Positions 6,721 to 24,244 of a DNA stretch of 64,000 bases are shown one piece after another. This DNA comes from a virus (Duplodnaviria; Heunggongvirae; Uroviricota; Caudoviricetes). Position numbers and translations under genes: made by a program. How positions within the stretch are numbered: position 1 is the first letter of the stretch; each line of letters begins with the position of its first letter. The stretch spans positions 2,682-66,681 of the IMG/VR virus record IMGVR_UViG_3300044295_000252; one strand, 5' to 3'. Below the pieces are notes generated by a model. That model was not told where the DNA came from. It made no database searches and saw only the letters and a list, made by a program, of their open reading frames with translations.

Positions 6721-9700
6721 ATGGCTCTAAATTTTCCGATTTCTCCGGCACCAGGCGACCTCTATACCTATGCAGGCAAAACCTGGACCTGGAACGGTAC
6801 CGGGTGGCAACTAATAGAATCTACCTCTGCATTAGACAACGTTAATACAAATTTAAATAACGAAATAAGTCAGCGCCAAGCAGCGGATCTTGTCATAAAT
6901 AATGCGATCAGTACAATAAGTGCAGCGGTTGCTAATGAAGTAAGTGCAAGACAATCAGCAAGTGCAGCACTAGAAAGCCATATTAATACTGTAAGCGCAG
7001 GACTTGCTGCTATCGATTCTGGCAATGTAAGCGTAAGTTTTACAGCAAGTAGTTATCCATTTACTGGCAATACACAATCCCTTAATACTACAACAGGTAC
7101 TATTGTTGTGACTGGTGGTGTTGGTATAAGCGGTAATCTAAATGTGGGCGGTCAATTTGCGGCAAACGGCAATATACTACCGGCACAAAATGCAACATTT
7201 AATTTGGGATCGCCTAGCTTACGTTGGAAATCACTTTATGTAACCGGCAACACAATTGATATTGATGGATTAACGATAGGCGCAGCTAACGGTCAAATTG
7301 TTATTCCTGCAGCAAATATTGGTGGCGTTGATATTAATAGCGCGATAACCACTATCAGTAATACAGTTTCCGCAGAAACATCAAATAGACAAAGTGCCAG
7401 TGCAGTTTTAGAAAGCCACATCAATACGGTAAGCAATACTGTTTCCATTGTTAATGCACAACTGGCTTCAATTGACACTAAATTGAGTAATGCTGTTAGT
7501 GCGTTGAGTGCAGATCTACGCAGCGCAATTAATGCGGTAAGCAATCAAGTATCGGTAACAAGTGCAGATTTAACTAGCGTAAAAAATAATTTGCAAAGTG
7601 CTATAAATGTTGTTTCAAATGCAGTAAGCGCAGAAACAGCCAATCGCATCAGTGCAGATAACGCGCTAAGTGTAGCGGCTCAAGCTGCGATAAACACTAT
7701 CAGTAATGCAGTTTCTATTGTATCTGTTGCAGCAGCAAATGCAGCTAGTATTGCAAATGCGGCTAGTGCGGCAGTAAATGTGGTGAGCAACGCAGTAAGT
7801 TTAGAAACAGCCAATAGAATTAGCGCCGATAATGTATTAAGTGTCAAAATTGATGCAGTTAGCAACACAGTATCTGTTGAAACGGTAAATCGACAATCAG
7901 CTAGTGCAGTATTAGAAAGCCACATCAATACCGTAAGCAATGCGGTTTCAGTGGTAAGTGCAGCGGCTGCTTCGGTAGAATCACATGTCAATACCGTGAG
8001 CAATGCGGTATCTACAGTCAGTGCAGCTTTATTGTCTGTAAGCGCACAGATTGAAAACCACGTAAATTTGGTAAGTAATGCAGTATCTCAAGTTAGTGTG
8101 GTTGCTGCTAATGCCATAAGTATGGCAAACGCAATCAGTCAAGCATTGTCAAACGAAATCAGCAACAGACTATCAGCCAGCGCGGTATTAGAAGGCCATA
8201 TTAATACAGTAAGTAATGCGGTATCCACTGTTTCGGCAGCAGTTGCTAATGCGGTTAGCATGATCAACGTAGTGAGTAATGCTGTTTCGGTAGAAACCGC
8301 AGCAAGAACATTAGCAAGCGCAAATTTAGAAACACATATAAACACGGTTAGTAACGCAGTTTCGGTGGTCAGTGCGGCAGCGGCAAATGCTATAAGCGCG
8401 ATCAATGTAGTTAGCAATACCTTATCCGCAGAAATTAATGATAGGAAATCGGTCAGCCAACTATTAGAAAGTCACATTGATACAGTAAGTGCTGCGGTTA
8501 ATACTGTAAGCAATGCTCTGAGTGTTGAAACTACAAATAGAGTATCAGCTGATAATGCATTAAGTGTACGTGTTGATTCTGTATATGGTGCCATTTCGTC
8601 AATAGTTGGTGGCGGCGCAGTGAGTGTAACCAGTGCTGACTTAATATCAGTAAGTGCCGTTTTAGAAAGCCATATTAACACAGTAAGCAACGCTGTTTCG
8701 GTTGAGGTAGCAAATAGACAATCAGCTAGTGCGGTGCTAGAAGGCCATATTAACACAGTTAGTAACGCAGTTTCAGTAGTGTCGGCGGCGGCAGCAAATG
8801 CAACTAGCATAGCCAATGCTGTAAGCAATGCAGTTTCTTTGGAAATTGCTAATCGAATCAGCGCAGACAATGCACTAAGTTCAAATATTAACACTGTAAG
8901 CAACGCAGTGTCCATTGAAATAGCAAATCGTCAATCAGCCAGTGCGGTTTTAGAAAATCATATTAATACAGTAAGCAATAGTGTTTCGGTCGTCAGTGCA
9001 GCGGTAGTGAATGAAGCAAGCATACGAGCAGCGGCAGACTTAAGCATCAATAATGGAATAAGCGTAGTAAGTGCTGCGGTAGTTAGCGTAGACAGTCATG
9101 TAAACACGGTAAGTGCGCAACTAGCTAGCGTTGATACCAAATTAAGCAACGCAATCAGTTTGGAAATAGCCAATAGGCAAAGCGCCAGTGCAGTTTTAGA
9201 AAGTCACATAAACGCAGTTAGTACAGCAGTTGACACGGTTAGTAATGCAATTAGTGCAGAAACAGCTAATAGGATTTCGTCTGAAAGCGGCCTAAGCTCA
9301 CGTGTTGATTCCGTATATAATGCTATATCTGCAATTTTTGTAGGTGGAGGAGTAAGTGTAACCAGTGCAGAACTAAACGCGGCAAGTGTAGCTTTGCAAA
9401 CTGCCATCAATACTGTAAGCACGGCAGTATCAGTTGTGTCAGTTGCAGCAGCAAACGCCACATCCATAGCTAATGCAGCTAGTAACGCGGTATCGGTTGA
9501 AGTCATTAACAGACAGTCAGCTAGTGCGGTTTTAGAGAGTCATATAAACACTGTAAGTAATGCTGCATCCGTAATTTCAGCTGCCGCCGCTTCGGTAGAG
9601 ATTCACGTTAATACGGTAAGCAATGCGGTCTCAGTAGAAATCGCTGATAGACAATCAGCTAGTGCTGCATTAGAAAGTCATATTAATACTGTAAGCAATA

Positions 9701-12700
9701 GTGTTTCGGTTGTTAGCGCAGCGGTGGCAAACGAAGCAAGTATACGTGCGGCCGCAGATGTATCAATTAATAATGAAATTAGTATTTTAAGTGCCGCTGT
9801 TGTAAGCGTTGAGAGTCACGTAAACACGGTAAGTGCAGAACTGGCCAGTGTAGACGCAAAACTAAGCAATGCAATCAGCTTAGAAATAGCAAACAGACAA
9901 AGTGCCAGTGCGGTTTTAGAAACTCACATTAATACAGTAAGTGCCGCAGTCGATACCGTGAGCAACGCTATATCTAACGAAATAAGCGTAAGGACCGCAG
10001 CAAGCGCAGCATTAGAAATCCATATAAATGCTGTCAGTGCAGCAGTCAATACTGTAAGCAATACTGTTTCAAACGAAATCAGTGTAAGACTGGCAGCAAG
10101 TGCCGCACTTGAAACTCACATAAACACAGTAAGCAACAACGTGTCGGTAGTTAGCGCAGCAATAGCTAATGAAGCAAGTATACGAGCAGCAGCAGATACT
10201 AGTATTAACAATGCGGTTAGCGTAGTAAGTGCAGCAGCGGTTTCTATTGAAACGCATGTTAATACAGTAAGTGCACAACTGGCTTCTGTTGACACCAAGT
10301 TAAGCACAGCAATTGTCAATGCAATAAGCAATGAAGCAAGTATACGAGCAGCCGCAGATATTAGCATAGACAATGCGGTTAGTGTAGTAAGTGCAGCAGC
10401 GGTTTCTATTGAAACACATGTAAACACAGTAAGTGCACAGTTGGCATCGGTAGACACAAAATTAAGCACAGCGGTTGCTAACTTAGCGTTGGATCATTTA
10501 ACTGATGTTCAAATCAGTAGCCCAGTAGCAGGTCAATTACTGACTTACAATGGAATAAATTGGATAAATGGCGCAGGTATAACAGTTTCTGGCGGTGCCG
10601 GCATCAGTTATTGGATGCAAACACCAGTCATTACCGCGGCTAGTACAGAAAACTATTTCCAAATAGACACACTGGGAGCCACACCAAATACATCTGCTCA
10701 AGTTTTGACTACCCAAACAGTTAACGGTACTACGGCAGTAGTTACAGCTTGGCAGTCTGGCGCATTGGGCAGAACAGTATTAGATGCTGGCAATTATGAA
10801 TTTAGTGTTTGGATGAGCACCAGCAATACTGGTGGCACCAATACTGCTCAATTAGATGTATACAGAATTGATCCATATTCTGGCGGCACAGTCACAATGA
10901 CTGGTACTGGTACTAGTAGAACCGTAACTGCAAGTAATGGCGCGCCCTTCGCCACAATAACTGCTAGCGGTACAATGACCAGCAGCAGTTGGTTAGAGAC
11001 ACCAAAAGGTCTTTATCAAATTACTGCAAAGACCAGTGATACGGTAGTGACTATAGCAGTGCCAGCGGCTTACACAAATGAGTCTGCGGTATCTGCTAGT
11101 GTGTGGAATCAGATATTCACTAATCCCTCATTTAATCTAACAAGTACCAACTTAATTGAGTATCCGTTCACTGCCACACAATCCAGTTTTAGTATTAACA
11201 AAACAACTAGTTTGGGTGTAATTGTATTTGCAACTACTAGCGCAAGTAGAACCATTACTTTCAGCATGGATGATGGCGTAACCGCGGCACATCTAACAAC
11301 ACCCTGGGCTGTGCTACATAATCAACTGGGCGAATTACAGGGCGGTGCTACAAACGAATATTATCACTTAACTAGTGCAGAATATGCAAATATCAATACA
11401 ACTAGTGCAAATCTAGCTAGTATAGAAAATCATTTGAGCGCGCTTGATGCTGCGGTAAGCAATGAAATAAGTGTGCGTCAAGCTGCCAGTGTAGTCTTAG
11501 AAAATCAAATCAGTGTAGTAAGTGCAGCAGTAGCAAATGAAACAAGTATACGTGCAGCACAGGATGCCAGCATCTATAATGCTGTGAGTGCGGTGAGTGC
11601 AGCAGTAGCAAACGAAGCCAGTATACGTGCGGCACAGGATGCCAGCATCTATAATGCTGTGAGTGCAGTAAGTGCGGCAGTGGCAAATGAAGCAAGTATC
11701 CGTGCCGCTGCTGACGTCAGCATCAACAATTCCATTAGTGTTGTCAGTGCTGCGTTAGTGAGTACAAATGATAGAATCAGTGGCATAAGTTCTAACGTAA
11801 CAAGTATCGATAACAAGCTCAGTAATGCAATAAGTGCAGTTAGTGTAGCAGCACAGTCAGCCATTAATACCGTAAGCTCAAATTTAGCCACTGAGATACT
11901 CAATCGTCAAAGCGCAAGTGCGGTATTAGAAGGCCATATTAACACTGTAAGTAACGCTGTATCTATAGTAAGTGCAGCAGCCGCGTCAATCGAAGCACAT
12001 GTAAACACAGTAAGCAACGCGATTAGTGCGGTAAGTGCAGCGGTTGCCAATGAAGCAAGTATACGTGCGGCAGCTGATGCATCTATCAATAATGACATTA
12101 GTATAGTAAGTGCGGCAGTGGTAAATGAAGCAAGTATCCGTGCCGCAGCAGACACAAGTATTAATAATTCTATAAGTGTAGTAAGTGCGGCATTGGTGAG
12201 TACAAATGATAGAATCAGTGGCGTAAGTTCTAACTTAACAAGTATTGATACGAAACTTAGCAATGCTATCAGTAACGTAACCAGTCAGTTACAGGCTGCA
12301 AGTGCTGCGTTAGAGAGTCATGTTAATACTGTAAGTGCTGCGGTCAATACTGTCAGCAACGCGGTAAGCGTAGAAACAGCTAATCGTATCAGTGCAGATA
12401 ATGCTTTAAGCGTAAGAATTGATTCAATAAGCAATCAAGTATCGGTCACAAGTGCAGATTTGGTCAGTGCTAAAAATAACTTGTTAAGCAACATCAATGC
12501 GGTAAGCAATGCAGTAAGTGTAGAAACTGCTAACCGAATAAGTGCAGATAACGCATTAAGTGCTAACATCAATACTGTTTCAGTTGCAGCAGCAAATGCA
12601 ACGTCAATAGCTAATGCAGCTAGTGCAGCAGTAAATGCAGTTAGTAATGCTCTCAGCGCCGAAATAGTAAATCGTATCAGTGCAGATAATGCAGTAAGTG

Positions 12701-15700
12701 CAGCAGCTCAAAGTGCAATCAATACCGTAAGTAATGCGGTATCTGTTGTTTCAGTTGCAGCGGCAAATGCAACAAGTATTGCTAATGCAGCAAGTAATGC
12801 GGTGTCGGTAGAAATTGCCAACAGACAATCAGCTAGTGCGGCATTAGAAACTCATATTAATACGGTCAGTGCGGCGGTTAACACTGTAAGCAATGCTGTA
12901 TCAGTTGAAACAGCAAATAGAATTAGTGCAGATAATGCAGTAAGTGCAGCAGCGCAAAGTGCAATCAATACCGTAAGTAATGCAGTATCTGTTGTATCGG
13001 TCGCAGCAGCAAATGCTACTTCAATTGCCAATGCAGCAAGTGCGGCAGTTAATGTAGTAAGCAATGCGTTAAGTGCCGAAATAGTAAATCGAATCAGTGC
13101 TGATAACGCATTGAGTAATGCAGTTTCGGCTACTTATGCTAAAAAAGCTGGCGACACATTTACAGGTCCTGTTGTAGTGTCTGCATCTTTAAGTGTAATT
13201 GGTGACCTTAATGTAAGCGGTATGCTACAAGTTAATGCAGCTTCGCTCTTAGAGGGTGGGCAAATTAATCTTGCGGCGGCTCCAAGTGGTTCATTAGCTG
13301 GTCCTATTGGTATAGACATATATGGAAACCGAGTTAGGATTTTTGAAACCACTGGAACCGCTCGTGGTGTTTACATTGATTTGACTAGTGCGGCAGCAGG
13401 AGTAGGTACAAACCTAATGGCAGGTGGCGGTGCAGGTAGTGTAGCCAGCGCCAACTTTGTAAGTGCGGTTAACTCACTTAGTAACGCAATATCAGTCGTA
13501 AGCGCAGCAGCGGCTTCGGTTGAATCGCATGTGAATACGGTAAGCAATGCCCTATCAAATGAAATTAGTAATAGGCAATCTGCCAGTGCTGCATTAGAAA
13601 CTCATATCAATGCAGCAAGTAATGCAGCTTCGGTAGTTAGTGCGGCTGTAGTAAGCGTTAGCGCAGTAATAGAAACTCATGTTAATACGGTCAGCAATGC
13701 GGTTAGTATTGTGAGTGTAGCCGCAGCTAATGCCATAAGCATGGCCAACGTTATAAGCAATGCATTAAGCAATGAAATATCAAACCGTATCAGTGCAGAT
13801 AATGTTTTAAGTGCAAACATAAACACGGTAAGCAATGCGGTATCAATCGTAAGTGTGGCAGCAGCAAACGCAACAAGCATAGCCAATGCAGTAAGCAATG
13901 CATTGAGCAATGAAATAAGCAATCGTCAAAGCGCCAGTGCTGCACTTGAGACTCATATCAATACAGTTAGTAATGCGGTATCAATAGTTTCAGTGGCAGC
14001 GGCCAACGCAACAAGTATTGCCAATGCAGCAAGTAATGCGGTATCAGTAGAAATAATTAATAGACAAGCAGCTAGCCAAGCATTACAGGTCAATATTGAT
14101 GCCGTAAGTCAAGCAGTTTCGGTAGTTAGTGTAGCAGTAGATCGCGTAAGCAATGCAGTTTCTAACGAAATAAGCAATAGACAATCAGCTAGTGCAGCGT
14201 TGGAAACACATATTAACACTGTAAGTGCCGCAGTTAATACGGTAAGTAATGCATTAAGTGCCGAAATAGTAAATCGTATCAGTGCTGATAACGCATTGAG
14301 CGCCAATATAAACACGGTAAGCAATGCAGTTTCAATCGTATCGGTAGCAGCAGCCAACGCAACTAGTATCGCAAATGCGGCAAGTAATGCGGTATCTGTA
14401 GAAATTGCAAACCGTATTAGCGCAGTAAATGCGGCCAGCGTCGCAGCACAATCAGCAATCAATACTGTAAGTAATGCGGTATCTATTGTATCAGTGGCAG
14501 CAGCAAATGCCATTTCAATAGCTAATGCAGCTAGTGCTGCGGTGAACGTAGTGAGTAATGCGTTAAGCAATGAAATAAGTAATCGCCAAAGTGCCAGTGC
14601 AGCACTTGAGACTCATATTAATACCGTAAGTAACGCAGTTTCGGTCGTAAGCCAAGCTGTTTCGGTCGTATCGGTTGCAGCAGCAAATGCTACAAGTATA
14701 GCCAATGCGGCTAGTATTGTTGCGGCAAATGCAACCAGTATTGCAAATGCAGCCAGTGTTGCCGCAGCAAATGCAACTAGTATTGCAAATGCGGCAAGTA
14801 ATGCGGTATCTGTAGAAATAGCAAATCGCATCAGCGCAGATAACGCAGTAAGCGCCGCAGCACAATCAGCAATCAATACCGTAAGCAATGCGGTATCTAT
14901 TGTATCAGTAGCGGCAGCAAATGCGACGTCAATAGCCAACGCGGTCAGTGCAGCGGTAAACGTAGTAAGCAACGCAGTGTCAATTGTAAGTGCTGCTCAG
15001 TTAAGTACTTGGAACGCGGTAAGCAATGAGATTTCCGTAAGAGCAGCAGCTAGTGCAGCCTTAGAAGCACACATCAATACCGTTAGTGCGGCAGCGGCAG
15101 CTGGTGGTGGTGTGGCATCTAGCAATATCAATAATAAAGTTTATACAGGATTAACAACCGCAACTACTATTATTGATACTACCGCAGTTGCCAACTACAG
15201 GGCAGTTGAATATCTTGCTACGGCCACAGACAACACCAACAGTCGTTACAAAGCAAGTAGAATAACAATTCTAACTGATAATACGAACGTTTATTACAGT
15301 GAGTATGATACTCTTTATAGTAATGCTTCTTATGAAGTAGCAACATTTACGGCAAACGTGGCTACGGGCAATATTAACCTTATTGCTCAGGGCGACAGCG
15401 CGAACGTAACAGTTCAATTACAAAAAGTGTATTTGGGTCCAGGAACCACAACTGGCGCAGCAGCTGGCATAACCAGTGTTTCTGGCGGTTCAAATACACA
15501 AGTACAATTTAACGATGCTGGAACGCTAAGTGGTAGTGCAAACTTGACCTTTGATAAAGGTACAAACGTATTAACAGTTACAGGAACAGCAACCGCAGGT
15601 AACTTAAGTACAGGTGGAACATTAACTGTAACCGGCAACACAACACAAACTGGTATATTGAAACTGGGTTCGGTAATGGTGGAAGCATATTCCAATGTAT

Positions 15701-16008
15701 CTATCAGCACAAATACGCTTACCTTGAACCTAAGCACGGCTGGTATATTTAATGTCACACTAAACTCAAATATTACTACAGTTTCACTAACCAACTACCC
15801 CAGCAGTGCTGGTCAAGCAGCTAGCTTTATATTAATGTTAACTGCTGACGGTACTGCTAGATCCATTACGTGGCCTGCTGCATTTAGGTGGCCGGGAGGA
15901 ACTGCGCCAACACCTACCAGCACGTTAAATAAAGTTGATGTGTTTGCGTTCTTCACACTGGATGGTGGTACTAACTGGCAAGCATTTATCTCAGGACAGA
16001 ATCTATAA
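6721..16008 (+). CDS. Giant long tail fibre, 3095 aa, mostly coiled coil
   Basis: Three long A/S/V/N/I-rich blocks of INTVSNAVS..EIANRQSASA.LE.H repeats separated by beta-rich inserts; C-terminal ITWPAAFRWPGGTAPT..VDVFAFFTLDGGTNW fibre domain; followed by a fibre chaperone gene. Confidence 0.8.
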   Translation: MALNFPISPAPGDLYTYAGKTWTWNGTGWQLIESTSALDNVNTNLNNEISQRQAADLVINNAISTISAAVANEVSARQSASAALESHINTVSAGLAAIDSGNVSVSFTASSYPFTGNTQSLNTTTGTIVVTGGVGISGNLNVGGQFAANGNILPAQNATFNLGSPSLRWKSLYVTGNTIDIDGLTIGAANGQIVIPAANIGGVDINSAITTISNTVSAETSNRQSASAVLESHINTVSNTVSIVNAQLASIDTKLSNAVSALSADLRSAINAVSNQVSVTSADLTSVKNNLQSAINVVSNAVSAETANRISADNALSVAAQAAINTISNAVSIVSVAAANAASIANAASAAVNVVSNAVSLETANRISADNVLSVKIDAVSNTVSVETVNRQSASAVLESHINTVSNAVSVVSAAAASVESHVNTVSNAVSTVSAALLSVSAQIENHVNLVSNAVSQVSVVAANAISMANAISQALSNEISNRLSASAVLEGHINTVSNAVSTVSAAVANAVSMINVVSNAVSVETAARTLASANLETHINTVSNAVSVVSAAAANAISAINVVSNTLSAEINDRKSVSQLLESHIDTVSAAVNTVSNALSVETTNRVSADNALSVRVDSVYGAISSIVGGGAVSVTSADLISVSAVLESHINTVSNAVSVEVANRQSASAVLEGHINTVSNAVSVVSAAAANATSIANAVSNAVSLEIANRISADNALSSNINTVSNAVSIEIANRQSASAVLENHINTVSNSVSVVSAAVVNEASIRAAADLSINNGISVVSAAVVSVDSHVNTVSAQLASVDTKLSNAISLEIANRQSASAVLESHINAVSTAVDTVSNAISAETANRISSESGLSSRVDSVYNAISAIFVGGGVSVTSAELNAASVALQTAINTVSTAVSVVSVAAANATSIANAASNAVSVEVINRQSASAVLESHINTVSNAASVISAAAASVEIHVNTVSNAVSVEIADRQSASAALESHINTVSNSVSVVSAAVANEASIRAAADVSINNEISILSAAVVSVESHVNTVSAELASVDAKLSNAISLEIANRQSASAVLETHINTVSAAVDTVSNAISNEISVRTAASAALEIHINAVSAAVNTVSNTVSNEISVRLAASAALETHINTVSNNVSVVSAAIANEASIRAAADTSINNAVSVVSAAAVSIETHVNTVSAQLASVDTKLSTAIVNAISNEASIRAAADISIDNAVSVVSAAAVSIETHVNTVSAQLASVDTKLSTAVANLALDHLTDVQISSPVAGQLLTYNGINWINGAGITVSGGAGISYWMQTPVITAASTENYFQIDTLGATPNTSAQVLTTQTVNGTTAVVTAWQSGALGRTVLDAGNYEFSVWMSTSNTGGTNTAQLDVYRIDPYSGGTVTMTGTGTSRTVTASNGAPFATITASGTMTSSSWLETPKGLYQITAKTSDTVVTIAVPAAYTNESAVSASVWNQIFTNPSFNLTSTNLIEYPFTATQSSFSINKTTSLGVIVFATTSASRTITFSMDDGVTAAHLTTPWAVLHNQLGELQGGATNEYYHLTSAEYANINTTSANLASIENHLSALDAAVSNEISVRQAASVVLENQISVVSAAVANETSIRAAQDASIYNAVSAVSAAVANEASIRAAQDASIYNAVSAVSAAVANEASIRAAADVSINNSISVVSAALVSTNDRISGISSNVTSIDNKLSNAISAVSVAAQSAINTVSSNLATEILNRQSASAVLEGHINTVSNAVSIVSAAAASIEAHVNTVSNAISAVSAAVANEASIRAAADASINNDISIVSAAVVNEASIRAAADTSINNSISVVSAALVSTNDRISGVSSNLTSIDTKLSNAISNVTSQLQAASAALESHVNTVSAAVNTVSNAVSVETANRISADNALSVRIDSISNQVSVTSADLVSAKNNLLSNINAVSNAVSVETANRISADNALSANINTVSVAAANATSIANAASAAVNAVSNALSAEIVNRISADNAVSAAAQSAINTVSNAVSVVSVAAANATSIANAASNAVSVEIANRQSASAALETHINTVSAAVNTVSNAVSVETANRISADNAVSAAAQSAINTVSNAVSVVSVAAANATSIANAASAAVNVVSNALSAEIVNRISADNALSNAVSATYAKKAGDTFTGPVVVSASLSVIGDLNVSGMLQVNAASLLEGGQINLAAAPSGSLAGPIGIDIYGNRVRIFETTGTARGVYIDLTSAAAGVGTNLMAGGGAGSVASANFVSAVNSLSNAISVVSAAAASVESHVNTVSNALSNEISNRQSASAALETHINAASNAASVVSAAVVSVSAVIETHVNTVSNAVSIVSVAAANAISMANVISNALSNEISNRISADNVLSANINTVSNAVSIVSVAAANATSIANAVSNALSNEISNRQSASAALETHINTVSNAVSIVSVAAANATSIANAASNAVSVEIINRQAASQALQVNIDAVSQAVSVVSVAVDRVSNAVSNEISNRQSASAALETHINTVSAAVNTVSNALSAEIVNRISADNALSANINTVSNAVSIVSVAAANATSIANAASNAVSVEIANRISAVNAASVAAQSAINTVSNAVSIVSVAAANAISIANAASAAVNVVSNALSNEISNRQSASAALETHINTVSNAVSVVSQAVSVVSVAAANATSIANAASIVAANATSIANAASVAAANATSIANAASNAVSVEIANRISADNAVSAAAQSAINTVSNAVSIVSVAAANATSIANAVSAAVNVVSNAVSIVSAAQLSTWNAVSNEISVRAAASAALEAHINTVSAAAAAGGGVASSNINNKVYTGLTTATTIIDTTAVANYRAVEYLATATDNTNSRYKASRITILTDNTNVYYSEYDTLYSNASYEVATFTANVATGNINLIAQGDSANVTVQLQKVYLGPGTTTGAAAGITSVSGGSNTQVQFNDAGTLSGSANLTFDKGTNVLTVTGTATAGNLSTGGTLTVTGNTTQTGILKLGSVMVEAYSNVSISTNTLTLNLSTAGIFNVTLNSNITTVSLTNYPSSAGQAASFILMLTADGTARSITWPAAFRWPGGTAPTPTSTLNKVDVFAFFTLDGGTNWQAFISGQNL
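7330..15100 (+). repeat. Coding imperfect tandem repeats built from 7- and 11-residue modules (boundaries approximate)
   Basis: A common 46-aa unit is INTVSNAVSIVSVAAANATSIANAASNAVSVEIANRQSASAALETH; an exact 35-nt repeat lies at 11557-11591 and 11632-11666. Confidence 0.85.
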
Positions 16009-16517
16009 TGGCTAACTTTGCATTAGTTGAGAATGATACTATAACAGGAATTTATGATGATCTCCCTCAAAATTGGGGGCGGGTAAGTAACCTATATCTG
16101 TTATCAAATGAAACAGACCATTTAAAAACACTGGGTTGGTATAAAATTCGTAGACAGGATCCAGAATATGATCCCAATGTAAAAATGCCGGGTAAATTGA
16201 GTTATATTTTTACTGGAACTGAGGTAATAGAAACAAATGAAATTTTAGATAGACCGCCCGAACCGCCAGCGAAAACTGCTGAACAATTGGCTGCTGAAGA
16301 ACAAGCAAGAATCGAAAATCAATGGAGTGTTGTGCGTAGACAGCGAGATCAACTAATGCGTGATAACGACTGGAGATATTTGCGTTATCAAAGGCAACAG
16401 CGAACAGGAACGGCAACTGCTGATGACTTAGCAAAGGTAGATGCTTATATGCAGGCCTTGGCTGATATAACTAGTCAAGTTGATCCCTATAACATAATTT
16501 GGCCCACATTAGAGTAA
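16008..16517 (+). CDS. Tail fibre assembly chaperone
   Basis: C-terminal WSVVRRQRDQLMRDNDW...YMQALADI..Q.DP.NIIWP matches the phage tail assembly chaperone motif; 1-nt overlap with the fibre stop. Confidence 0.8.
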   Translation: MANFALVENDTITGIYDDLPQNWGRVSNLYLLSNETDHLKTLGWYKIRRQDPEYDPNVKMPGKLSYIFTGTEVIETNEILDRPPEPPAKTAEQLAAEEQARIENQWSVVRRQRDQLMRDNDWRYLRYQRQQRTGTATADDLAKVDAYMQALADITSQVDPYNIIWPTLE

Positions 16518-16518
16518 C

Positions 16519-19500
16519 ATGTCTGTACATAAAGCGTTATTAGCAATTCAATCAACGTCAAATATAGGTCCATTATTTCAGTGGGGTCTAAATACATCTG
16601 GTCAATTGGGTGATAGTACAACTACACTGCGTTCTAGTCCCGTGCAAGTTGGCACCAGTTATTGGAGCCAAGTAGCAACTGGTGACAGTGGTACCGTTGC
16701 AGTACGTGCTGATGGCGGATTATATGCGTGGGGGTTGCTGCCGTTTGGTGTAAGCTCATCGTCTCCGGTGGTATTAGCATCGGGCAAGTGGTCTAAAGTT
16801 GCAATGGGTAATAACCATGCTTTAGCAATTAAGTCTGATGGGTCATTATGGTCCGTTGGTCTGGGCAGCAGTGGTCAATTAGGAGATACCAACACTAGTT
16901 TTAATCAAAGTTGGACACAAGTCGCGCATGGAACATCTCATGCACTGGCAATAAGAAATGACGGAGCATTATTTGTTTGGGGAAGTGATACCGATGGAGC
17001 ATTGGGAGTAAACAGCACAACCGCCAGCTATAGTAGCCCAGTTCAATTGGGCACAGCAAGTTGGATTTATGTATCTGCTGAAAACAATTTTGGTCGTTCT
17101 ATGGCAATAAGAAGTGATGGCGCATTATTTGGTTGGGGTTATAACCTTAATGGAGAGCTAGGAGACAACACTATTATAAGCAGGTCAAGTCCGGTACAAA
17201 TAGGTACCAGCAGTTGGACCGCTGTGAGTTCTGGTAGACCTATATCAGCGGCTTTGCGAATAGATGGTGCAATGTTTACCTGGGGGAGCGGGCCAATCGG
17301 GGATAATACTATCATAAGCAGATCCAGTCCAGTTCAAATAGGCACTAGCAGTTGGAGTATGGTTAGCGCAGGATTCAGCACCTTCGCTGCAATACGGATA
17401 GATGGTGCATTGTTTACTTGGGGATATAATAGATACGGGCAGATGGGCAATAACGTAGGTGGCACTCTAATAGATACATCTAGTCCAGTTCAAATAGGCA
17501 CTAGTAGCTGGACAAAAGTTTCTTCTGGAAGCACATATACAGCCGCTATTAGAAATGATGGTGCATTATTTACATGGGGCAACAATGCCAACGGCTGCCT
17601 TGGTGAATTTACTACTACCGCTGTGGCTGGTAATAGGTCAAGTCCGGTTCAAATAGGGACTAGCAGTTGGACGCAGGTAAGGGCCGGGGTAAATATCCAG
17701 TCTACTTTTGCAATAAGAAATGATGGCGGTTTGTTTGGTTGGGGCATTAATACTGTTGGGCTATTAGGTCTTAACGACACTATCAGTCGCAGCAGCCCAG
17801 TACAAATAGGCACTAGTAGTTGGACACAAATATGTAGCCTTGCATATAGAACAATGCAGGGTATACTTACAAATGGTGTAATGTATGGTTGGGGGGCGGC
17901 TTCTGTTGGAGACGGCACAGCAAGTGGATTTTCAAGTCCAGTTCAAGTAGCCGCATTGCCCGGAAGAGTCAGCCTTACGCAAATAGGCAGTAGCAGTTGG
18001 AGTCAGATATCTGCTGGGGGCAACGTAAGTGCGGGTATAACAACGGCTAACACATTATTTGTCTGGGGCGATAATTCAGTTAATCAACTGGGCGACTACA
18101 CTACTGCAAATAAAACGTATCCCATACCAGTGGCTCCATTAAGTTGGTCCAGCGTTGCAAAAGGGGCGTCACATTCCGCCGCAGTTCGCAGTGATGGCGC
18201 GTTATTTACGTGGGGTACGGCCACAACGGGGTGCTTGGGTGACAATGCCAACGTGTCGCGTAGCAGCCCGGTACAGATAGGTAATAGCAGTTGGAGCACT
18301 GTCAGTTGCGGTATTTGCCACACCATGGCCATACGTTCAGATAGTACAGCTTGGGGCTGGGGCGCTGGCACTAATGGCTGCATTGGTGATGGAACTACTA
18401 CGAACAGATCTAGTCCAGTGCAAATAGGTACCGGTTTATGGAATAAGCTGATTGCATTTGCAGCTAGTACTAGTTCTATGGGTATACGCAGTGATGGTAC
18501 CTTATATACCTGGGGTCTAAATACATCTGCACAATTAGGGCTCAATGATATAGTTAATCGCAGTAGTCCCTCACAAGTTGGAACTAGCAGTTGGACACAA
18601 ATTGCTGGTTGGACTTTATCGTCGGCGGCAATAAGAACTGATGGTGGTTTATTTACGTGGGGTGTTGGTTCAGCTGGACAATTAGGGCTAAATGATGCAC
18701 TACCCAGAAGTAGTCCAACACAAGTAGGTACCAGCAGTTGGACTCAGGTATCTATGGCTTCCAATACCATGCAAGCTATTAGAACAGATGGTGGTTTATT
18801 CACTACGGGCGCTGGTACTGGCGGATTGGGTGGAACTAATAATACTACGCAATACTCTAGTCCAGTGCAAATAGGAACCAGTAGTTGGACTTTAGTGAAA
18901 ATTACAGGTAACAATTCTTATGCCATAAGAAGCGATGGAACACTATGGGCGTGGGGTGTATCTACAATATTGGGAAATAACACAGCGTCTAATGCCAGCA
19001 GCCCTGTGCAAATAGGTAGCGCAAGTTGGACACAGCTATCCGCCAATAGCGGCGGAGTGATAGGTGTCTACAATAATGTAGTTTATCTTTGGGGCAGTAC
19101 GAACGAATCCGGCAACGGACTAACCGATACCGTAGTAACACCATACCCTTCAATAACTATTAATACCGGCCTCAATAATAGTTTCCCCTCCAGTTGGACC
19201 AACGTAGCAGTAGGCCCCAGTCATATTGTAGCAATAGATAAAACCAGTTATAACGTATATGGTTTTGGTTATAATAATAGTTCACAACTAGCTCAAACTA
19301 CGGACAGTACACAGAGTTGGTCGCAAATTGCGTTGGGCGGTGCCACAGCTGGTGAATTTGCCTTGGCACTAAGATCTGATGGTATACTATTTGCCTGGGG
19401 ATATAATGCTCAAGGTCAGTTGGGCGACAATACAATTACAACCAGGTCAAGCCCTGTACAAGTTGGTGGCTTTAGCTGGACTAAAATATCTGCTGGTGTA

Positions 19501-21870
19501 AGCAGTAGCGCAGCTATAAGATCAGATAACAAATTATTTACTTGGGGAGGTAATAGTTTTGGTCAGTTAGGACAAAATGATACTACTGCTAGATCTGCTC
19601 CTACACAAGTTGGTAATAGTAGTTGGATTCAAATTTCTACAGGCGGTGGCATCAACACTTTAAGCGATCCTGCATTTACTGGGGCATTGCGCAGCGATAA
19701 TGGGTTGTTTATGTGGGGCGGCAACACTTATGGCGTATTAGGCCTTAATGACGTCGTGGCAAGATCTAGCCCAGTGCAGGTAGGTTCCAGTAGTTGGACT
19801 GCAATTAGTGCGGGCGAACAATTTGCGGCTGGAATTAAAACAGATGGCAGCCTGTGGAGTTGGGGTTATGGCAATATTACTAACAACACTTATTCAAGTC
19901 CTGTACAGGTTGGCACAAGTAGCTGGAGCCAAATATCTGCAGGTTATGATCATGCGTTGGGTATAGATATAAATGGCCGATTATATAGCGGCGGATTCAA
20001 CCAAAATGGACAATTAGGATCTAATAACACCACACAACGCAACAACATGAGTAGTACAGTAAACAATACCGTAAGCTGGGCACAAGTTTCAGCTGGTCCG
20101 TTGATAAGTTTTGCAAAAACAACCACAGGTCAACTTTGGGCTTGGGGTACTAATGCTAATGGACAATTAGGACTTAACGATTTAAACAACAGATCTAGTC
20201 CGGTACAAGTTGGAACGAGTAGCTGGGCACAGTTAGCCAGCTCTGCTGGAACAATGGGCAATTTTTTTGCAGGGATATTAAACAATAATGCTCTCTATAT
20301 TTGGGGCGTCAATACAGTGGGAGAATTGGGCGACAATACAACTACAAGTAGATCAAGTCCGGCTCAAGTTGGTACTCAAGCTGGAACACAGACAATACAA
20401 CTAAACAGACCAACGGTAATCACTGGTAGCAGTTGGACACAAGTAGCAGCTGGTCCCAGTCACACAATGGCTATTAAAAACGATAATACATTATGGGGCT
20501 GGGGCAGCTATGCATCATCTGATACAACTAACAGTTATTTTTGGTGGACCAGTGTAAAAACAAACAACTCAAACGCTTTAGCTATTCGTAGCGATGGTGC
20601 ACTATTTGCCTTAGGCGGCGCTGGAAGTTTGGGGCAAACTGGTCTTAATACAGGAAACCCAAATTCAAGTCCTGTTCAAATAGGAACGAGTAGTTGGACA
20701 CAAATATCGGTAGGAGTTGGTCATGCTCTAGCAATAAGAAAGGACGGAGCACTATTTGCCTGGGGAGATAATAGTAACGGCCAACTGGGAGACAATACAG
20801 CGGGCAGTCTTGCAAGGAAATCTAGTCCTATACAAATAGGCACTAGCAGTTGGAGCCAAGTTGCAGCTGGTTCAAGTTATAGCTTTGCTATAAGGTCTGA
20901 TGGGGCTCTATTTTCGTGGGGCAACAACGCGCATGGAGCACTTGGGGATTCTACTACCGCAGTAGCTGGTAATAGATCTAGTCCTGTTCAAATAGGTACT
21001 AGTAGCTGGAGTTTGATTGCAACCAATACCACTGCATTTAATGCAGCCGCAATTAGAACTGACGGCGGCCTTTTTACCTGGGGATGGAATTTTGCTGGTC
21101 AATTGGCTCTAAATGATAGGACCGACCGATCCAGCCCAGTACAAATAGGTACCAGTAGTTGGAGCCAAATTTCTGTAGGTATCAGCTCTATGTCAGGAAT
21201 AAAACTTGACCAAACATTATGGTCCTGGGGAGGCAACGCTAACGGTGAATTAGGACTTAACGATATTATAAACAGATCTAGTCCTGTACAAATAGGAACC
21301 AGTAGTTGGAGTCAAATATCAGCTAATAATGTGTTTATGGCGGCTATAAGAACAGATGGTGCTTTATACACGTGGGGATCTAATGCCAACGGGCAATTGG
21401 GAGATACTGTCACCGCAGTTGCTGGTTTTAGATCTAGTCCTGTTCAAATAGGAACTAGTAGTTTTACTCAAATAAGCAACGGTGCAGGTGCTGTTAATTT
21501 ATTTGCTATAAGAATTAATGGAGCCTTGTTTGGCACGGGCCAAAATAGCTTTGGTGAGCTAGGATTAAATGATTTAAATGCAAGATCAAGTCCTGTGCAA
21601 GTTGGTTCATATCCTACTGCTCCATTTACTAGCACGGTGACACAAATGGGCGCGTTGAGCTATAAACAAGTGGCAGCTGGTCTTAATAATACCTACGCCA
21701 TAAGCAATACAAACAAATTGTATTCCTGGGGCTCTAATACTTCGGGTATGATAGGCAACAGTCCAATACCTTTTGTTGGGTTAACGGTAAGTCCAGTTCA
21801 AATTGGTACTAGCAACTGGATTACAGTAAGCGCAGGTCAAAGCCACGTGGGTGCGGTACGTTATCCATAA
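16519..21870 (+). CDS. RCC1/BLIP-II repeat protein with 35 repeats (five 7-bladed propellers)
   Basis: 35 LxxWG...GQLG...SSPVQIGTSSW...AIRxDG units counted by hand. Confidence 0.85.
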   Translation: MSVHKALLAIQSTSNIGPLFQWGLNTSGQLGDSTTTLRSSPVQVGTSYWSQVATGDSGTVAVRADGGLYAWGLLPFGVSSSSPVVLASGKWSKVAMGNNHALAIKSDGSLWSVGLGSSGQLGDTNTSFNQSWTQVAHGTSHALAIRNDGALFVWGSDTDGALGVNSTTASYSSPVQLGTASWIYVSAENNFGRSMAIRSDGALFGWGYNLNGELGDNTIISRSSPVQIGTSSWTAVSSGRPISAALRIDGAMFTWGSGPIGDNTIISRSSPVQIGTSSWSMVSAGFSTFAAIRIDGALFTWGYNRYGQMGNNVGGTLIDTSSPVQIGTSSWTKVSSGSTYTAAIRNDGALFTWGNNANGCLGEFTTTAVAGNRSSPVQIGTSSWTQVRAGVNIQSTFAIRNDGGLFGWGINTVGLLGLNDTISRSSPVQIGTSSWTQICSLAYRTMQGILTNGVMYGWGAASVGDGTASGFSSPVQVAALPGRVSLTQIGSSSWSQISAGGNVSAGITTANTLFVWGDNSVNQLGDYTTANKTYPIPVAPLSWSSVAKGASHSAAVRSDGALFTWGTATTGCLGDNANVSRSSPVQIGNSSWSTVSCGICHTMAIRSDSTAWGWGAGTNGCIGDGTTTNRSSPVQIGTGLWNKLIAFAASTSSMGIRSDGTLYTWGLNTSAQLGLNDIVNRSSPSQVGTSSWTQIAGWTLSSAAIRTDGGLFTWGVGSAGQLGLNDALPRSSPTQVGTSSWTQVSMASNTMQAIRTDGGLFTTGAGTGGLGGTNNTTQYSSPVQIGTSSWTLVKITGNNSYAIRSDGTLWAWGVSTILGNNTASNASSPVQIGSASWTQLSANSGGVIGVYNNVVYLWGSTNESGNGLTDTVVTPYPSITINTGLNNSFPSSWTNVAVGPSHIVAIDKTSYNVYGFGYNNSSQLAQTTDSTQSWSQIALGGATAGEFALALRSDGILFAWGYNAQGQLGDNTITTRSSPVQVGGFSWTKISAGVSSSAAIRSDNKLFTWGGNSFGQLGQNDTTARSAPTQVGNSSWIQISTGGGINTLSDPAFTGALRSDNGLFMWGGNTYGVLGLNDVVARSSPVQVGSSSWTAISAGEQFAAGIKTDGSLWSWGYGNITNNTYSSPVQVGTSSWSQISAGYDHALGIDINGRLYSGGFNQNGQLGSNNTTQRNNMSSTVNNTVSWAQVSAGPLISFAKTTTGQLWAWGTNANGQLGLNDLNNRSSPVQVGTSSWAQLASSAGTMGNFFAGILNNNALYIWGVNTVGELGDNTTTSRSSPAQVGTQAGTQTIQLNRPTVITGSSWTQVAAGPSHTMAIKNDNTLWGWGSYASSDTTNSYFWWTSVKTNNSNALAIRSDGALFALGGAGSLGQTGLNTGNPNSSPVQIGTSSWTQISVGVGHALAIRKDGALFAWGDNSNGQLGDNTAGSLARKSSPIQIGTSSWSQVAAGSSYSFAIRSDGALFSWGNNAHGALGDSTTAVAGNRSSPVQIGTSSWSLIATNTTAFNAAAIRTDGGLFTWGWNFAGQLALNDRTDRSSPVQIGTSSWSQISVGISSMSGIKLDQTLWSWGGNANGELGLNDIINRSSPVQIGTSSWSQISANNVFMAAIRTDGALYTWGSNANGQLGDTVTAVAGFRSSPVQIGTSSFTQISNGAGAVNLFAIRINGALFGTGQNSFGELGLNDLNARSSPVQVGSYPTAPFTSTVTQMGALSYKQVAAGLNNTYAISNTNKLYSWGSNTSGMIGNSPIPFVGLTVSPVQIGTSNWITVSAGQSHVGAVRYP

Positions 21871-23652: not shown

Positions 23653-24244
23653 ATTTACCGTAGAGTTTGATCCGGAAAATGTGCAGGCAAATATGATGCA
23701 CATTTTCAAACAATTTGGTGTGCCTAATACCGTGATAGAAATCGGCGTATATGAAGGTCGCACTACATGTTGGATGGCAGAAGTACTAACTCCACACAAC
23801 AGCGATCTTAAAATACATGCCATAGATCCACATGATCAAAGCATTGATATTCACGAGAGTATGGAGGCTGCGCATGATACATTCTTACAAAATATACAGC
23901 ATAGCCCCTGCAAAAACATAAACTATATTAGAAAGCGTTCGGAAGATGCATTAGTGGACTTAATTACACAGTCTGTATCTGCGGAATTTATATATGTAGA
24001 TGGAGATCATTTTGCCAGTAGTGTATTAACTGACCTCGTGTTAGGATACAAACTTTTAAAAGCGGGTGGCGTCATGTTGTGCGATGATGCTACAGAATGG
24101 CGCTTTACTGACAAAAACAAAGAAACTAATCCACAATACGCACCACGCATGGCTATAGAAAACTTCATTCAATGCTATTGGCACAAAGTTAAACCTATCT
24201 ACTTGCCCTGTATGACACAAACCGCATTTATAAAATTATGTTAA
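23642..24244 (+). CDS. SAM-dependent methyltransferase (Methyltransf_24-like)
   Basis: VIEIGVYEGRTT and FIYVDGDH...LLKAGGVMLCDD motifs; GTG start overlaps the previous gene. Confidence 0.75.
   Translation: MNYKFTVEFDPENVQANMMHIFKQFGVPNTVIEIGVYEGRTTCWMAEVLTPHNSDLKIHAIDPHDQSIDIHESMEAAHDTFLQNIQHSPCKNINYIRKRSEDALVDLITQSVSAEFIYVDGDHFASSVLTDLVLGYKLLKAGGVMLCDDATEWRFTDKNKETNPQYAPRMAIENFIQCYWHKVKPIYLPCMTQTAFIKLC

What the first reader, a model, noticed from the sequence alone, without database searches (positions are those of the whole stretch)
16519..21870. 'Propeller of propellers': four complete 7-repeat RCC1 blocks inserted into a fifth, scaffold propeller
Seen: the 35 repeats parse as 3 + [7] + 1 + [7] + 1 + [7] + 1 + [7] + 1. 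Before blocks A (16906-17964), C (19312-20391) and D (20536-21618) the host repeat is cut short and lacks its SSPVQ strand (TSFN|QSW, TDST|QSW, TTNS|YFW). The missing strand reappears after the block as a second copy (SSPVQV..RVSLTQIG, SSPAQV..NRPTVITG, SSPVQV..STVTQMG). Block B (18142-19173) inserts slightly later in its repeat. The seven leftover repeats make one more propeller. Known: RCC1/BLIP-II folds are 7-bladed. Inference: a hub propeller carrying four satellite propellers on consecutive loops, i.e. a multivalent receptor-binding head for the giant fibre. I do not know of this nested design being described.
Basis: partly seen in the sequence, partly recalled or inferred. Interest (0 to 1): 0.78.

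Follow-up and report, generated by a model that had tools for sequence, protein, structure and literature searches.

The report
Phage protein: four propellers inside one
A 1,783-residue protein in the tail-fibre region of an uncultured giant lake phage is very probably one seven-bladed ring whose chain leaves four times to build a complete extra ring and then returns. Two of those extra rings have been swapped as whole cassettes in a close relative, as expected for a variable host-binding device.

Summary
ORF 16519-21870 (+) encodes 35 RCC1 blades that parse as 3+[7]+1+[7]+1+[7]+1+[7]+1. Three junctions lack the innermost strand, and each is followed exactly seven blades later by a doubled copy of it (shuffle p about 1e-5).

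The nested reading has three independent supports.
1. The left-over strands make exactly seven four-stranded blades, and the chain's two ends complement each other.
2. In 118 other large RCC1 proteins the same open and close marks enclose seven blades far more often than chance. Where rings lie inside rings, each level again sums to seven.
3. In the one close relative, rings C and D are about 64% identical, while the hub blades between and around them are about 92-100% identical. The breakpoints sit at the ring edges.

Structure prediction did not confirm the hub. The protein is too long to fold whole. In the two fragment models the junction linkers are low-confidence, but single hub blades seem to attach to neighbouring rings. 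A split-hub co-fold gave only weak support.

Ring-in-ring has a solved WD40 precedent (Trm734). This scan has also reported nested RCC1 rings in other phage genomes. A role as a binding head is circumstantial.

The parts
16519..21870 (+). Whole gene: 1783-aa all-RCC1 protein with 35 blades (P0001).
   Evidence: ORF. Pfam PF00415 and PF25390. Repeat parse.
16519..16905 (+). Hub, N-terminal part (residues 1-129). It holds the lone outer strand c of hub blade 1 and hub blades 2 and 3. It ends in the blade-3 loop with no following d strand.
   Evidence: spacing 18, no d strand. 95% identical in the relative.
16906..17949 (+). Ring A (residues 130-477): strands a-b-c, then six d-a-b-c blades, then a closing d strand. 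This is the UVR8-type strand order.
   Evidence: pLDDT is mostly 75-93, with lower blocks near residues 311-320 and 361-370 and toward the ring's last blade and closing strand; closing strand E471-476.
17950..18141 (+). Return linker, second d copy (residues 485-490), single blade 492-517, its loop and a d-like strand at 533-537. In the alternative register it is the first blade of ring B.
   Evidence: Low pLDDT at 478-491. HMM hit from position 2. UVR8 aligns to model 491-833, which favours the alternative register.
18142..19092 (+). Ring B blades B1-B7 (residues 542-858). The register is ambiguous: seven d-a-b-c blades over 532-858, or a ring over 492-833 with 837-858 acting as hub blade 4.
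19093..19311 (+). Long junction (residues 859-890, with a d-like strand at 875-882) and hub blade 5 (891-931). It ends without a d strand.
   Evidence: Low pLDDT at 861-888. Spacings 34 then 17. 92-95% identical in the relative.
19312..20370 (+). Ring C (residues 932-1284). The exchanged cassette is about residues 923-1278, and the closing d strand is 1279-1284.
   Evidence: 64% nt identity to L009, against 88-97% in the neighbouring parts.
20371..20541 (+). Return linker, second d copy (residues 1298-1303) and hub blade 6 (1304-1341).
   Evidence: Low pLDDT at 1288-1302 and 1331-1341. The interval from ring C's closing d strand to the end of hub blade 6 (residues 1279-1341) has 91.5% nt identity, between two 64% cassettes.
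20542..21603 (+). Ring D (residues 1342-1695). The exchanged cassette is about residues 1337-1689, and the closing d strand is 1690-1695.
   Evidence: Structural matches start at model residues 468-473, which is residues 1339-1344.
21604..21867 (+). Return linker, second d copy (residues 1705-1710), hub blade 7 (1713-1740), a spare d-like strand (1748-1753) and the terminal d-a-b strands (1758-1781). The terminal strands should join the N-terminal c strand to close the hub.
   Evidence: 100% aa identity in the relative. The split-hub co-fold score depends on this chain.
16008..16517 (+). Upstream neighbour: 169-aa phage tail assembly chaperone-like protein.
   Evidence: PF16778, 28.1 bits against a cutoff of 26.6. 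PHROG tail fibre assembly families.
6721..16008 (+). Upstream neighbour: 3095-aa fibre-like protein with no Pfam family. Given as context only.
   Evidence: Syntenic in L009.

Best explanation
The gene encodes a single chain folded as five seven-bladed RCC1-type rings, of which four are domain insertions in the fifth.

A structural blade is d-a-b-c, with d (the SSPVQ strand) innermost. The proposed path of the chain is as follows.
1. It starts with the outermost strand of hub blade 1 and makes hub blades 2 and 3.
2. It leaves at the end of the blade-3 loop and builds ring A (a-b-c, six d-a-b-c blades, and a final d that closes onto the first blade, as in UVR8).
3. It returns through a 9-residue linker to the innermost strand of hub blade 4.
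4. Rings B, C and D loop out in the same way at the next three hub positions. The exact strand at which B leaves is unresolved.
5. The last d-a-b strands join the N-terminal c strand to close the hub, which is the RCC1/RPGR type of closure.

The two ends of a UVR8-type ring lie side by side, so a ring can be inserted or replaced without disturbing its host. In nature rings C and D have been replaced as whole cassettes.

What is shown: the blade parse, the marks, the family rule of seven, and the mosaic with its breakpoints.

What is inferred: the 3D assembly of the hub, and a role as a multivalent, exchangeable host-binding module of the tail-fibre apparatus (about 55% likely).
For: 1. Strand bookkeeping. 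Rings A, C and D each start without a d strand and end with an extra one. What is left over is c, two d-a-b-c blades, four more single blades each with a d-like strand beside it (three of them a clear second d copy), and a final d-a-b. That makes exactly seven four-stranded blades, with complementary chain ends.

2. The three open-to-close pairs at exactly seven blades have a shuffle probability of 1.2e-5.

3. Family grammar, in 118 other large homologs.
- Junction spacing is trimodal, with peaks at 14-17, 25-30 and about 40 residues.
- Matched open/close pairs with nothing nested inside enclose 7 blades in 47 of 81 cases, against 3.7 expected.
- Where rings lie inside, the host's own blades sum to 7 in 22 of 45 cases, against 2.4 expected. 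An example is 3(4(4(5(7)2)3)3)4)6.
- Some relatives show hubs with two or three satellites, for example 2(7)2(7)2(7)1.
- The junction sequences of distant members show the same missing-d and double-d motifs.

4. Control: 120 shorter RCC1 proteins of about 740 aa mostly show 13-14 uninterrupted blades with no marks. Plain tandem rings therefore do not produce the marks.

5. Mosaic against the syntenic relative L009/P0002.
- Rings C and D have 64% nt identity, and 45-49% of identical-residue codons differ.
- Hub pieces, linkers and rings A and B have 88-97% nt identity, and 10-21% of such codons differ.
- Flanking genes have 94-98% nt identity.
- Breakpoints fall at the ring starts and just before the closing d strands.
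- The 63 residues between C and D are at backbone level (91.5% nt).

6. AlphaFold2 fragments. Rings are mostly confident (pLDDT 80-97 over most of each ring; lower in parts of rings A and C). The confidence lows of more than four residues lie at the fragment ends, at the predicted junctions (478-491, 861-888, 1288-1302, 1331-1341, 1700-1710) and at the spare d-like strand 1748-1753. Two four-residue lows lie inside rings A and C (366-369, 1243-1246). No low falls at the boundaries a sequential parse would need. The fold matches UVR8, HERC2 RLD, RPGR and RCC1 with Z 25-34.

7. Hub blades 3, 5, 6 and the C-terminal piece resemble one another more than they resemble most satellite blades. Three of hub blade 5's four best partners are hub blades.

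8. Split-hub co-fold. The N-terminal hub piece scored ipSAE 0.43 against the other hub pieces. The best control scored 0.06, and that control was the one with the C-terminal hub chain replaced.
- The tool's verdict is weak support. The mark was reached by 58 of 80 solved complexes and 2 of 110 mismatches, but at 0.60 or under by only 7 of those 80 and by both mismatches.
- The runs agree in at least 86% of contacts, and the partner's pLDDT is at least 78.
- The pass may reflect likeness to solved propellers.

9. The gene lies in a tail-fibre module, with an Mtd_N protein, a 3095-aa fibre, a tail assembly chaperone and a Peptidase_G2 chaperone domain nearby.
Against: No model of the whole chain could be made, because the limit is 1200 residues.

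In the two fragment models the hub is not seen.
- The second d copies at 1298-1303 and 1705-1710 are not strands.
- Hub blades have only moderate confidence (52-88).
- The aligned ranges suggest that lone hub blades are attached to the neighbouring ring. UVR8 aligns to 491-833. RCC1 aligns to model-2 17-334, which is hub blade 5 plus C1-C6. The eight-bladed propellers Rsa4 and Cdc4 align to D1-D7 plus hub blade 7.
- Coordinates and error maps were not available, so this is read from ranges only.

The co-fold support is weak, and any set of RCC1 blades might be assembled by the predictor.

Ring B lacks the clean open mark.

A spare d-like strand at 1748-1753 is unexplained.

For the function, there is no recognisable virion-attachment or trimerisation domain, no virion proteome and no known host.
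Confidence: 0.8

Rival explanations
1. There are four eight-bladed rings, each made of a seven-blade block plus the adjacent single blade. The first about 129 residues and the last about 30 form a three-blade remainder. That remainder might pair with other chains.
For: In the AlphaFold2 fragment models the single blades seem to sit in the neighbouring ring. Eight-bladed Rsa4 (4wjv) and Cdc4 (3mks) align across D1-D7 plus hub blade 7 (model-2 470-868). UVR8 aligns without gaps to 491-833. RCC1 aligns to model-2 17-334. The rmsd values of 3-6 A are high for true seven-on-seven matches. Rsa4 and Cdc4 are eight-bladed according to PMC4242840. The doubled d strands would also fit an eight-blade count.
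Against: The models attach hub blade 5 to the ring after it and hub blade 7 to the ring before it, and leave hub blade 6 alone. That looks like a fragment artefact rather than a design.

Three spare blades cannot close a ring.

Solved RCC1-like domains are seven-bladed (established knowledge). The RCC1-like matches that lead searches agree.

In relatives, the blade after a close mark counts toward a host ring that sums to seven (22 of 45 against 2.4 expected), for example 5(7)2.

Hub blade 6 stays at 95% identity between two 64% cassettes.
Confidence: 0.08
2. There are five ordinary propellers in tandem (blades 1-7, 8-14 and so on). The odd junctions are just irregular loops.
For: 35 equals 5 x 7. 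Tandem RCC1 rings are common, and about 740-aa relatives show 13-14 uninterrupted blades.
Against: Tandem rings leave no missing-d or double-d marks, whereas this protein has three matched pairs.

The fragment models show no confidence dip near residues 330 or 690, where tandem boundaries would fall, and the dips lie at the nested boundaries.

The cassette breakpoints fall at 932/1278 and 1342/1689, not at multiples of seven blades from the N-terminus.

A ring built from blades 1-7 would include a blade with no innermost strand.
Confidence: 0.03
3. The topology is nested, but the protein is not a fibre-borne receptor binder. It might be a free or cell-associated binding protein, a capsid or tail decoration, or a host-takeover factor that merely lies next to the fibre genes.
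For: The chain is RCC1 blades from about residue 17 to the end, with no N-terminal anchor, collar or trimerisation domain. PHROG families for such proteins carry only a generic 'regulator of chromosome condensation' label. Glycosyl- and methyl-transferase genes follow it.
Against: The gene follows a giant fibre and a tail assembly chaperone in both relatives. Whole-ring cassette exchange between near-identical genomes is the pattern usual for host-range determinants (general knowledge of phage tail-fibre mosaicism).
Confidence: 0.35

Closest known systems
Single seven-bladed RCC1-like domains: UVR8 (PDB 4DNW, 4NC4), HERC2 RLDs (3KCI, 7Q40), RPGR (4JHN), RCC1 (1A12), BLIP-II (1JTD)
   Same: Same repeat family (Pfam) and same fold (Z 25-34 for the eukaryotic RCC1-like domains, 16-18 for BLIP-II). 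The satellites use the UVR8 strand order, starting with a and closed by a last d. The hub uses the RCC1/RPGR order, starting with a lone c strand.
   Different: Those are single, contiguous rings. Here four rings are coded inside the loops of a fifth, and the hub's blades lie up to 1,650 residues apart in sequence.
Yeast Trm734, and by the paper's own comparison DDB1: triple WD40 propellers (PMC6847430)
   Same: It is a solved case of ring-in-ring. In Trm734 the chain leaves BPA after strand c7, builds the complete BPB and returns to supply d7 of BPA. The N-terminal strand belongs to the last ring, BPC.
   Different: It has WD40 blades, not RCC1 blades. It has one insertion rather than four. 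It is a eukaryotic scaffold protein, and no cassette exchange is known for it.
Large bacterial and phage RCC1 proteins from metagenomes (P0003-P0120), and nested RCC1 proteins reported earlier in this scan (e1-5414916, e1-5438190, e1-5438191, e1-5668091)
   Same: They share the open/close junction grammar and the rule of seven. Some relatives carry two or three satellites on one hub, and some are nested four or five deep.
   Different: They are only 31-42% identical, in any register, so they are not orthologs. This protein has four satellites on consecutive hub positions and no deeper nesting. The earlier scan reports are unchecked AI notes.
Phage receptor-binding proteins that use a beta-propeller, e.g. 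Staphylococcus phage phi11 Gp45 (PMC4901313, title and abstract only)
   Same: A propeller domain in a phage host-recognition device.
   Different: It has one small propeller on a trimeric stalk. No stalk or anchor is visible in this protein.

Membership tests
RCC1 / RCC1-like domain repeat family (PF00415, PF25390) | Repeat profile matches above the curated cut-off | tested here: met
   PF00415 scores 619 bits (cutoff 21.7) in 25 stretches. PF25390 scores 984 bits (cutoff 150) in 8 stretches.
RCC1 / RCC1-like domain repeat family | Propeller fold like solved RCC1-like domains | tested here: met
   The fragment models match UVR8, HERC2 RLD, RPGR and RCC1 with Z 25-34 over 305-347 residues.
RCC1 / RCC1-like domain repeat family | Seven blades per ring | tested here: inconclusive
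   The sequence marks enclose exactly seven blades. The fragment models also align to eight-bladed WD40 rings across a ring plus the adjacent single blade.
Domain-inserted (nested) propellers, as in Trm734 | A complete ring is coded between two strands or loops of a host ring, so the host strand is missing before the insert and supplied after it | tested here: met
   Shown at sequence level. There are three junctions with no d strand, each followed seven blades later by d, a linker and a second d. The same grammar holds across the family, with a rule of seven per level. It is absent from plain tandem relatives.
Domain-inserted (nested) propellers, as in Trm734 | Host segments before and after the inserts pack into one closed ring in 3D | tested here: inconclusive
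   The full chain is too long to fold. The fragment models do not show the hub. The split-hub co-fold scored 0.43 against a best control of 0.06, which the tool rates as weak support.
Phage tail-fibre / receptor-binding proteins | Encoded in the tail-fibre module | tested here: met
   The gene lies directly after a 3095-aa fibre-like ORF and a PF16778 tail assembly chaperone. An Mtd_N protein lies upstream, and a Peptidase_G2 chaperone domain lies downstream. The order is the same in L009.
Phage tail-fibre / receptor-binding proteins | Conserved attachment part with variable distal binding modules between close relatives | tested here: met
   The hub is 95-100% identical in protein sequence, while rings C and D are 63-64% identical with saturated synonymous differences. 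This shows the pattern only, not binding.
Phage tail-fibre / receptor-binding proteins | Recognisable N-terminal virion-attachment or trimerisation domain | tested here: not met
   RCC1 blades run from residue 17 to 1781. No other strong family matched in Pfam or PHROGs; the only extras were marginal hits, NfeD at E 0.0095 below its cutoff and two unnamed PHROG families.
Phage tail-fibre / receptor-binding proteins | Presence in the virion and binding to a host receptor | not testable with these tools
   The phage is uncultured and known only from metagenomes.

The most novel reading that the evidence does not exclude
A 'propeller of propellers': a conserved seven-bladed RCC1 hub that displays four complete RCC1 rings as interchangeable binding cartridges. 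Whole rings would be swapped between phages by recombination at the conserved ring edges. Under this reading, RCC1 rings form a natural plug-in system for multivalent host recognition, part of a wider and so far undescribed family grammar of rings nested in rings.
Probability: 0.5. Interest if true: 0.8.

Novelty: new variant of a known kind. Interest (0 to 1): 0.68.

Why it matters
Propellers are described as toroids whose blades are almost always sequential in the chain (abstract of PMC6805158). A large survey of repetitive propellers, which includes the RCC1 group, does not use the words inserted, nested or interrupted (PMC9218822).

A hub with four rings looped out of consecutive positions would be an extreme case of same-fold domain insertion. 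It raises a folding question, because the hub can only close after 1,780 residues have been made.

It also offers a simple sequence rule for reading the topology of very large RCC1 proteins: a missing innermost strand opens a ring, a doubled one closes it, and each level holds seven blades.

The cassette exchange of exactly one ring at a time suggests a modular way for giant phages to change what they bind. It might also serve as a scaffold for engineered multivalent binders.

Tried and rejected
1. A megablast search of the gene against cultured phages found no match. A tblastn search found only distant RCC1 proteins; the best were Synechococcus phages at 37-46%.

2. phmmer could not align fragments collinearly to any homolog except P0002. 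BLASTP alignments to the others fall in arbitrary repeat registers. The alignments given to AlphaFold2 therefore carry only generic RCC1 information.

3. Model coordinates and error maps are not returned and are not in /data. Domain composition had to be guessed from aligned ranges, which proved ambiguous.

5. I looked for versions with fewer inserts on the same hub.
- The tail-chaperone anchor found only the one known relative in viral contigs.
- A search for shorter proteins with hub residues 1-129 gave only generic RCC1 proteins, none above about 53% identity.
- So no 0-3-insert series was found for this hub. This is no proof that none exists.

6. A blade-by-blade similarity matrix showed no positional homology between rings A-D that would fix ring B's register.

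7. Counts of blades between consecutive long junctions gave no clear peak at 8.

8. Literature searches for nested or inserted RCC1 propellers in phages found nothing relevant.

9. I considered and rejected an artefact of mis-parsed repeats. Two HMMs give the same parse, and the marks are visible directly in the sequence.
Full report
**What is there.** Window 16519-21870 (+) is one open frame of 1783 codons. It is made of RCC1 repeats from about residue 17 to the end: PF00415 in 25 stretches, and PF25390 at E 5e-297. The record is a 137-kb fragment of an uncultured virus, estimated 39% complete, and the gene is its only RCC1 gene. No cultured phage is close; the best tblastn hits are Synechococcus phages at 37-46%. 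The gene follows a 3095-aa fibre-like ORF and a 169-aa tail assembly chaperone (PF16778). It is followed by methyl- and glycosyl-transferase genes and a Peptidase_G2 chaperone-domain ORF.

**Checking the observation.** I built a 49-position HMM from the protein's own regular repeats and then a broader one from 1,500 repeats of homologs. Both give 34 complete blade cores, an N-terminal outer strand and a C-terminal three-strand piece, which makes 35 blades. I name the strands in sequence order: d (the SSPVQ strand), a (the W..V strand), b and c (ending in WG).

The d-a, a-b and b-c connections are 3-5 residues long, and the c-d connection is about 13 residues. A structural blade is therefore d-a-b-c, with d innermost. 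This agrees with established knowledge of the family:
- UVR8 starts with an a strand and is closed by a last d strand.
- RCC1 and RPGR start with a lone c strand.

The distance from the c-strand Gly to the next a-strand Trp is about 26 residues at regular junctions. At three junctions it is 18, 17 and 14 residues, and no d strand is present. Exactly seven blades later it is 35, 43 and 41 residues, where a d strand, a linker and a second d-like strand are found. The HMM recognises the second copies at residues 485-490, 1298-1303 and 1705-1710. Shuffling the marks among the 33 junctions reproduces three open-to-close pairs at distance seven in 1.2e-5 of trials.

**Strand bookkeeping.** Rings A (130-477), C (932-1284) and D (1342-1695) each read a-b-c, six d-a-b-c blades, then d. 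That is a complete ring with the UVR8 type of closure. The two chain ends of such a ring lie side by side, which is the geometry a domain insertion needs. What remains is:
- a lone c strand (17-23);
- two d-a-b-c blades;
- four single blades, each preceded by a second d copy or a d-like strand;
- a terminal d-a-b.

This makes seven four-stranded blades, with the chain's two ends completing one blade as in RCC1 and RPGR. A sequential parse (blades 1-7, 8-14 and so on) would put a blade without an innermost strand inside the first ring and would leave the doubled strands unexplained.

**Family evidence.** Only one protein is a true ortholog: P0002, 81% identical and 1780 aa long. More than 4,000 other large RCC1 proteins match at 31-42% in arbitrary repeat registers. 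In 118 of them the junction spacing is trimodal, with peaks at 14-17, 25-30 and about 40 residues. I read a short junction without a d strand as an opening bracket and a long junction as a closing bracket.
- Matched pairs with nothing nested inside enclose seven blades in 47 of 81 cases, against 3.7 expected from shuffles.
- Where rings lie inside, the host's own blades add up to seven in 22 of 45 cases, against 2.4 expected.
- Examples are 3(4(4(5(7)2)3)3)4)6, 3(4(2(7)5)3)3)6 and hubs with several satellites such as 2(7)2(7)2(7)1.
- The junction sequences of these distant proteins show the same missing and doubled strands.

As a control, 120 shorter relatives of about 740 aa mostly have 13-14 uninterrupted blades and no marks. 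Plain tandem rings therefore do not create the marks. The nested design is a family trait, and this protein is the form with one hub and four satellites on consecutive positions.

**Evolutionary evidence.** P0002 lies on a syntenic contig (L009) whose flanking genes are 94-98% identical in DNA. Within the RCC1 gene:
- Hub pieces, linkers and rings A and B are 88-97% identical in DNA, and 10-21% of identical-residue codons differ.
- Rings C and D are 64% identical, and 45-49% of such codons differ.
- The 63 residues between C and D (closing strand, linker, hub blade 6) are 91.5% identical.

The changes begin in the last residues of the hub loop before each ring. They end just before the closing d strand, at about residues 923-1278 and 1337-1689. 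Two whole rings have thus been exchanged while the hub stayed. This is hard to reconcile with contiguous propellers and fits a conserved scaffold carrying replaceable modules. A smaller divergent patch covers blades A3-A4. The exact P0001 sequence occurs on at least four contigs from several samples.

**Structure prediction.** The chain exceeds the 1200-residue limit, and an insert-deleted hub may not be sent. I therefore folded residues 1-931 and 872-1783, using alignments of 62 sub-ranges. Mean pLDDT is 81 in both models and pTM is about 0.5.

The rings are mostly confident, although stretches of rings A and C score lower. The confidence lows of more than four residues lie at the fragment ends, at the predicted junctions (478-491, 861-888, 1288-1302, 1331-1341, 1700-1710) and at the spare d-like strand 1748-1753. 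Two four-residue lows lie inside rings A and C. There is no dip where sequential ring boundaries would be. The fold matches UVR8, HERC2 RLDs, RPGR and RCC1 with Z 25-34.

The hub, however, is not seen.
- The second d copies before hub blades 6 and 7 are not modelled as strands.
- Hub blades score only 52-88.
- The aligned ranges suggest that lone hub blades are modelled as part of the neighbouring ring. UVR8 aligns without gaps to 491-833. RCC1 aligns to hub blade 5 plus C1-C6.
- Eight-bladed Rsa4 and Cdc4 align across D1-D7 plus hub blade 7. PMC4242840 confirms that both are eight-bladed.

The attachment is inconsistent: one hub blade joins the following ring, one joins the preceding ring and one joins neither. 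Each fragment also holds only part of the hub. I therefore read this as a fragment artefact, but I could not inspect coordinates, and I keep an eight-bladed alternative as a rival at 8%.

I also sent a co-fold of the whole hub split at the ring boundaries, with ring D kept in place. The N-terminal hub piece scored ipSAE 0.43, and the best control scored 0.06. That control was the one in which the chain carrying the C-terminal hub part was replaced.
- The tool rates this as weak support. The mark was reached by 58 of 80 solved complexes and 2 of 110 mismatches, but at 0.60 or under by only 7 of the 80 and by both mismatches.
- The runs agree in at least 86% of contacts, and the partner's pLDDT is at least 78.
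- The pass may come from likeness to solved propellers.

**Open detail.** Ring B has a d-like strand before it and only a long junction after it. Three registers fit the strand count:
- seven d-a-b-c blades over 532-858;
- a UVR8-type ring over 492-833 with 837-858 as hub blade 4.

The fragment model favours the last. The similarity matrix and the family statistics do not decide.

**Function.** The evidence for a role in host recognition is gene position in the tail-fibre module, conserved in the relative, and whole-ring exchange between near-identical genomes. Against it, there is no anchor or trimerisation domain. Nothing here shows that the protein is in the virion or sits on the giant fibre. 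I put a binding-head role at about 55%.

**Comparison and novelty.** A ring inside a ring is solved for WD40. In Trm734 the chain leaves BPA after strand c7, builds BPB and returns with d7, and the N-terminal strand belongs to BPC (PMC6847430). I found no paper describing nested RCC1 rings or a hub with several satellite rings. These searches cover open-access text only. This scan has already reported nested RCC1 proteins in other phage genomes. Those notes gave me the Trm734 lead, which I checked. My homolog set independently shows the deep nesting and the multi-satellite hubs they describe. I class the finding as a new variant of a known kind. What it adds is four satellites on one hub and clear natural evidence that single rings are exchanged as cassettes.

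Noticed in passing
window 19288-20352 and 20527-21585 (residues about 923-1278 and 1337-1689), compared with L009:10001-15343: There are two natural alleles of the gene. Rings C and D are replaced by versions 64% identical in DNA, while the rest of the gene and the flanking genes are 88-98% identical. The window's allele occurs unchanged on at least four contigs from several samples.
   Followed up: yes
window 17269-17478 (residues 251-320, blades A3-A4): A smaller divergent patch inside ring A between the two alleles (blades A3 and A4 are 67-71% identical, their neighbours 86-100%). It suggests partial-ring exchange or local diversification.
   Followed up: partly
window 21760-21777 (residues 1748-1753) and 18115-18129 (residues 533-537): Two d-like strands share a Pro-Ile-Pro motif. 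The C-terminal one is surplus to the strand count and has low confidence in the model. No explanation so far.
   Followed up: no
homologs P0003-P0120 (e.g. P0048, P0074, P0102, P0038): Many large RCC1 proteins read as rings nested four or five deep, or as hubs with two or three satellites. Many also have gaps of about 230-320 residues in the blade array, in proteins that carry PF13385 (LamG-like), as if other domains were looped out of blades too.
   Followed up: partly
window 3785-5503: A 572-aa protein starts with a Major tropism determinant N-terminal domain (PF18454, E 1e-12). This is a second likely host-recognition protein in the module. Whether a diversity-generating retroelement is nearby was not checked.
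   Followed up: no
window 24982-25479: A 165-aa ORF consists of little more than a Peptidase_G2 intramolecular-chaperone cleavage domain (PF11962, E 6e-8). That domain normally sits at the C-terminal end of tailspikes or fibres; here it stands alone.
   Followed up: no
window 21925-24942: A 575-aa ORF has no Pfam family and only a weak PHROG methyltransferase match. It is followed by a Methyltransf_24 protein and a family-25 glycosyltransferase, directly behind the RCC1 gene. The order is conserved in L009. They might modify virion proteins or host surface sugars.
   Followed up: partly
P0121-P0240 (shorter RCC1 proteins): About 740-aa RCC1 proteins with 13-14 uninterrupted blades are common. 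They look like plain tandem double rings and make a useful negative control for the nesting marks.
   Followed up: partly
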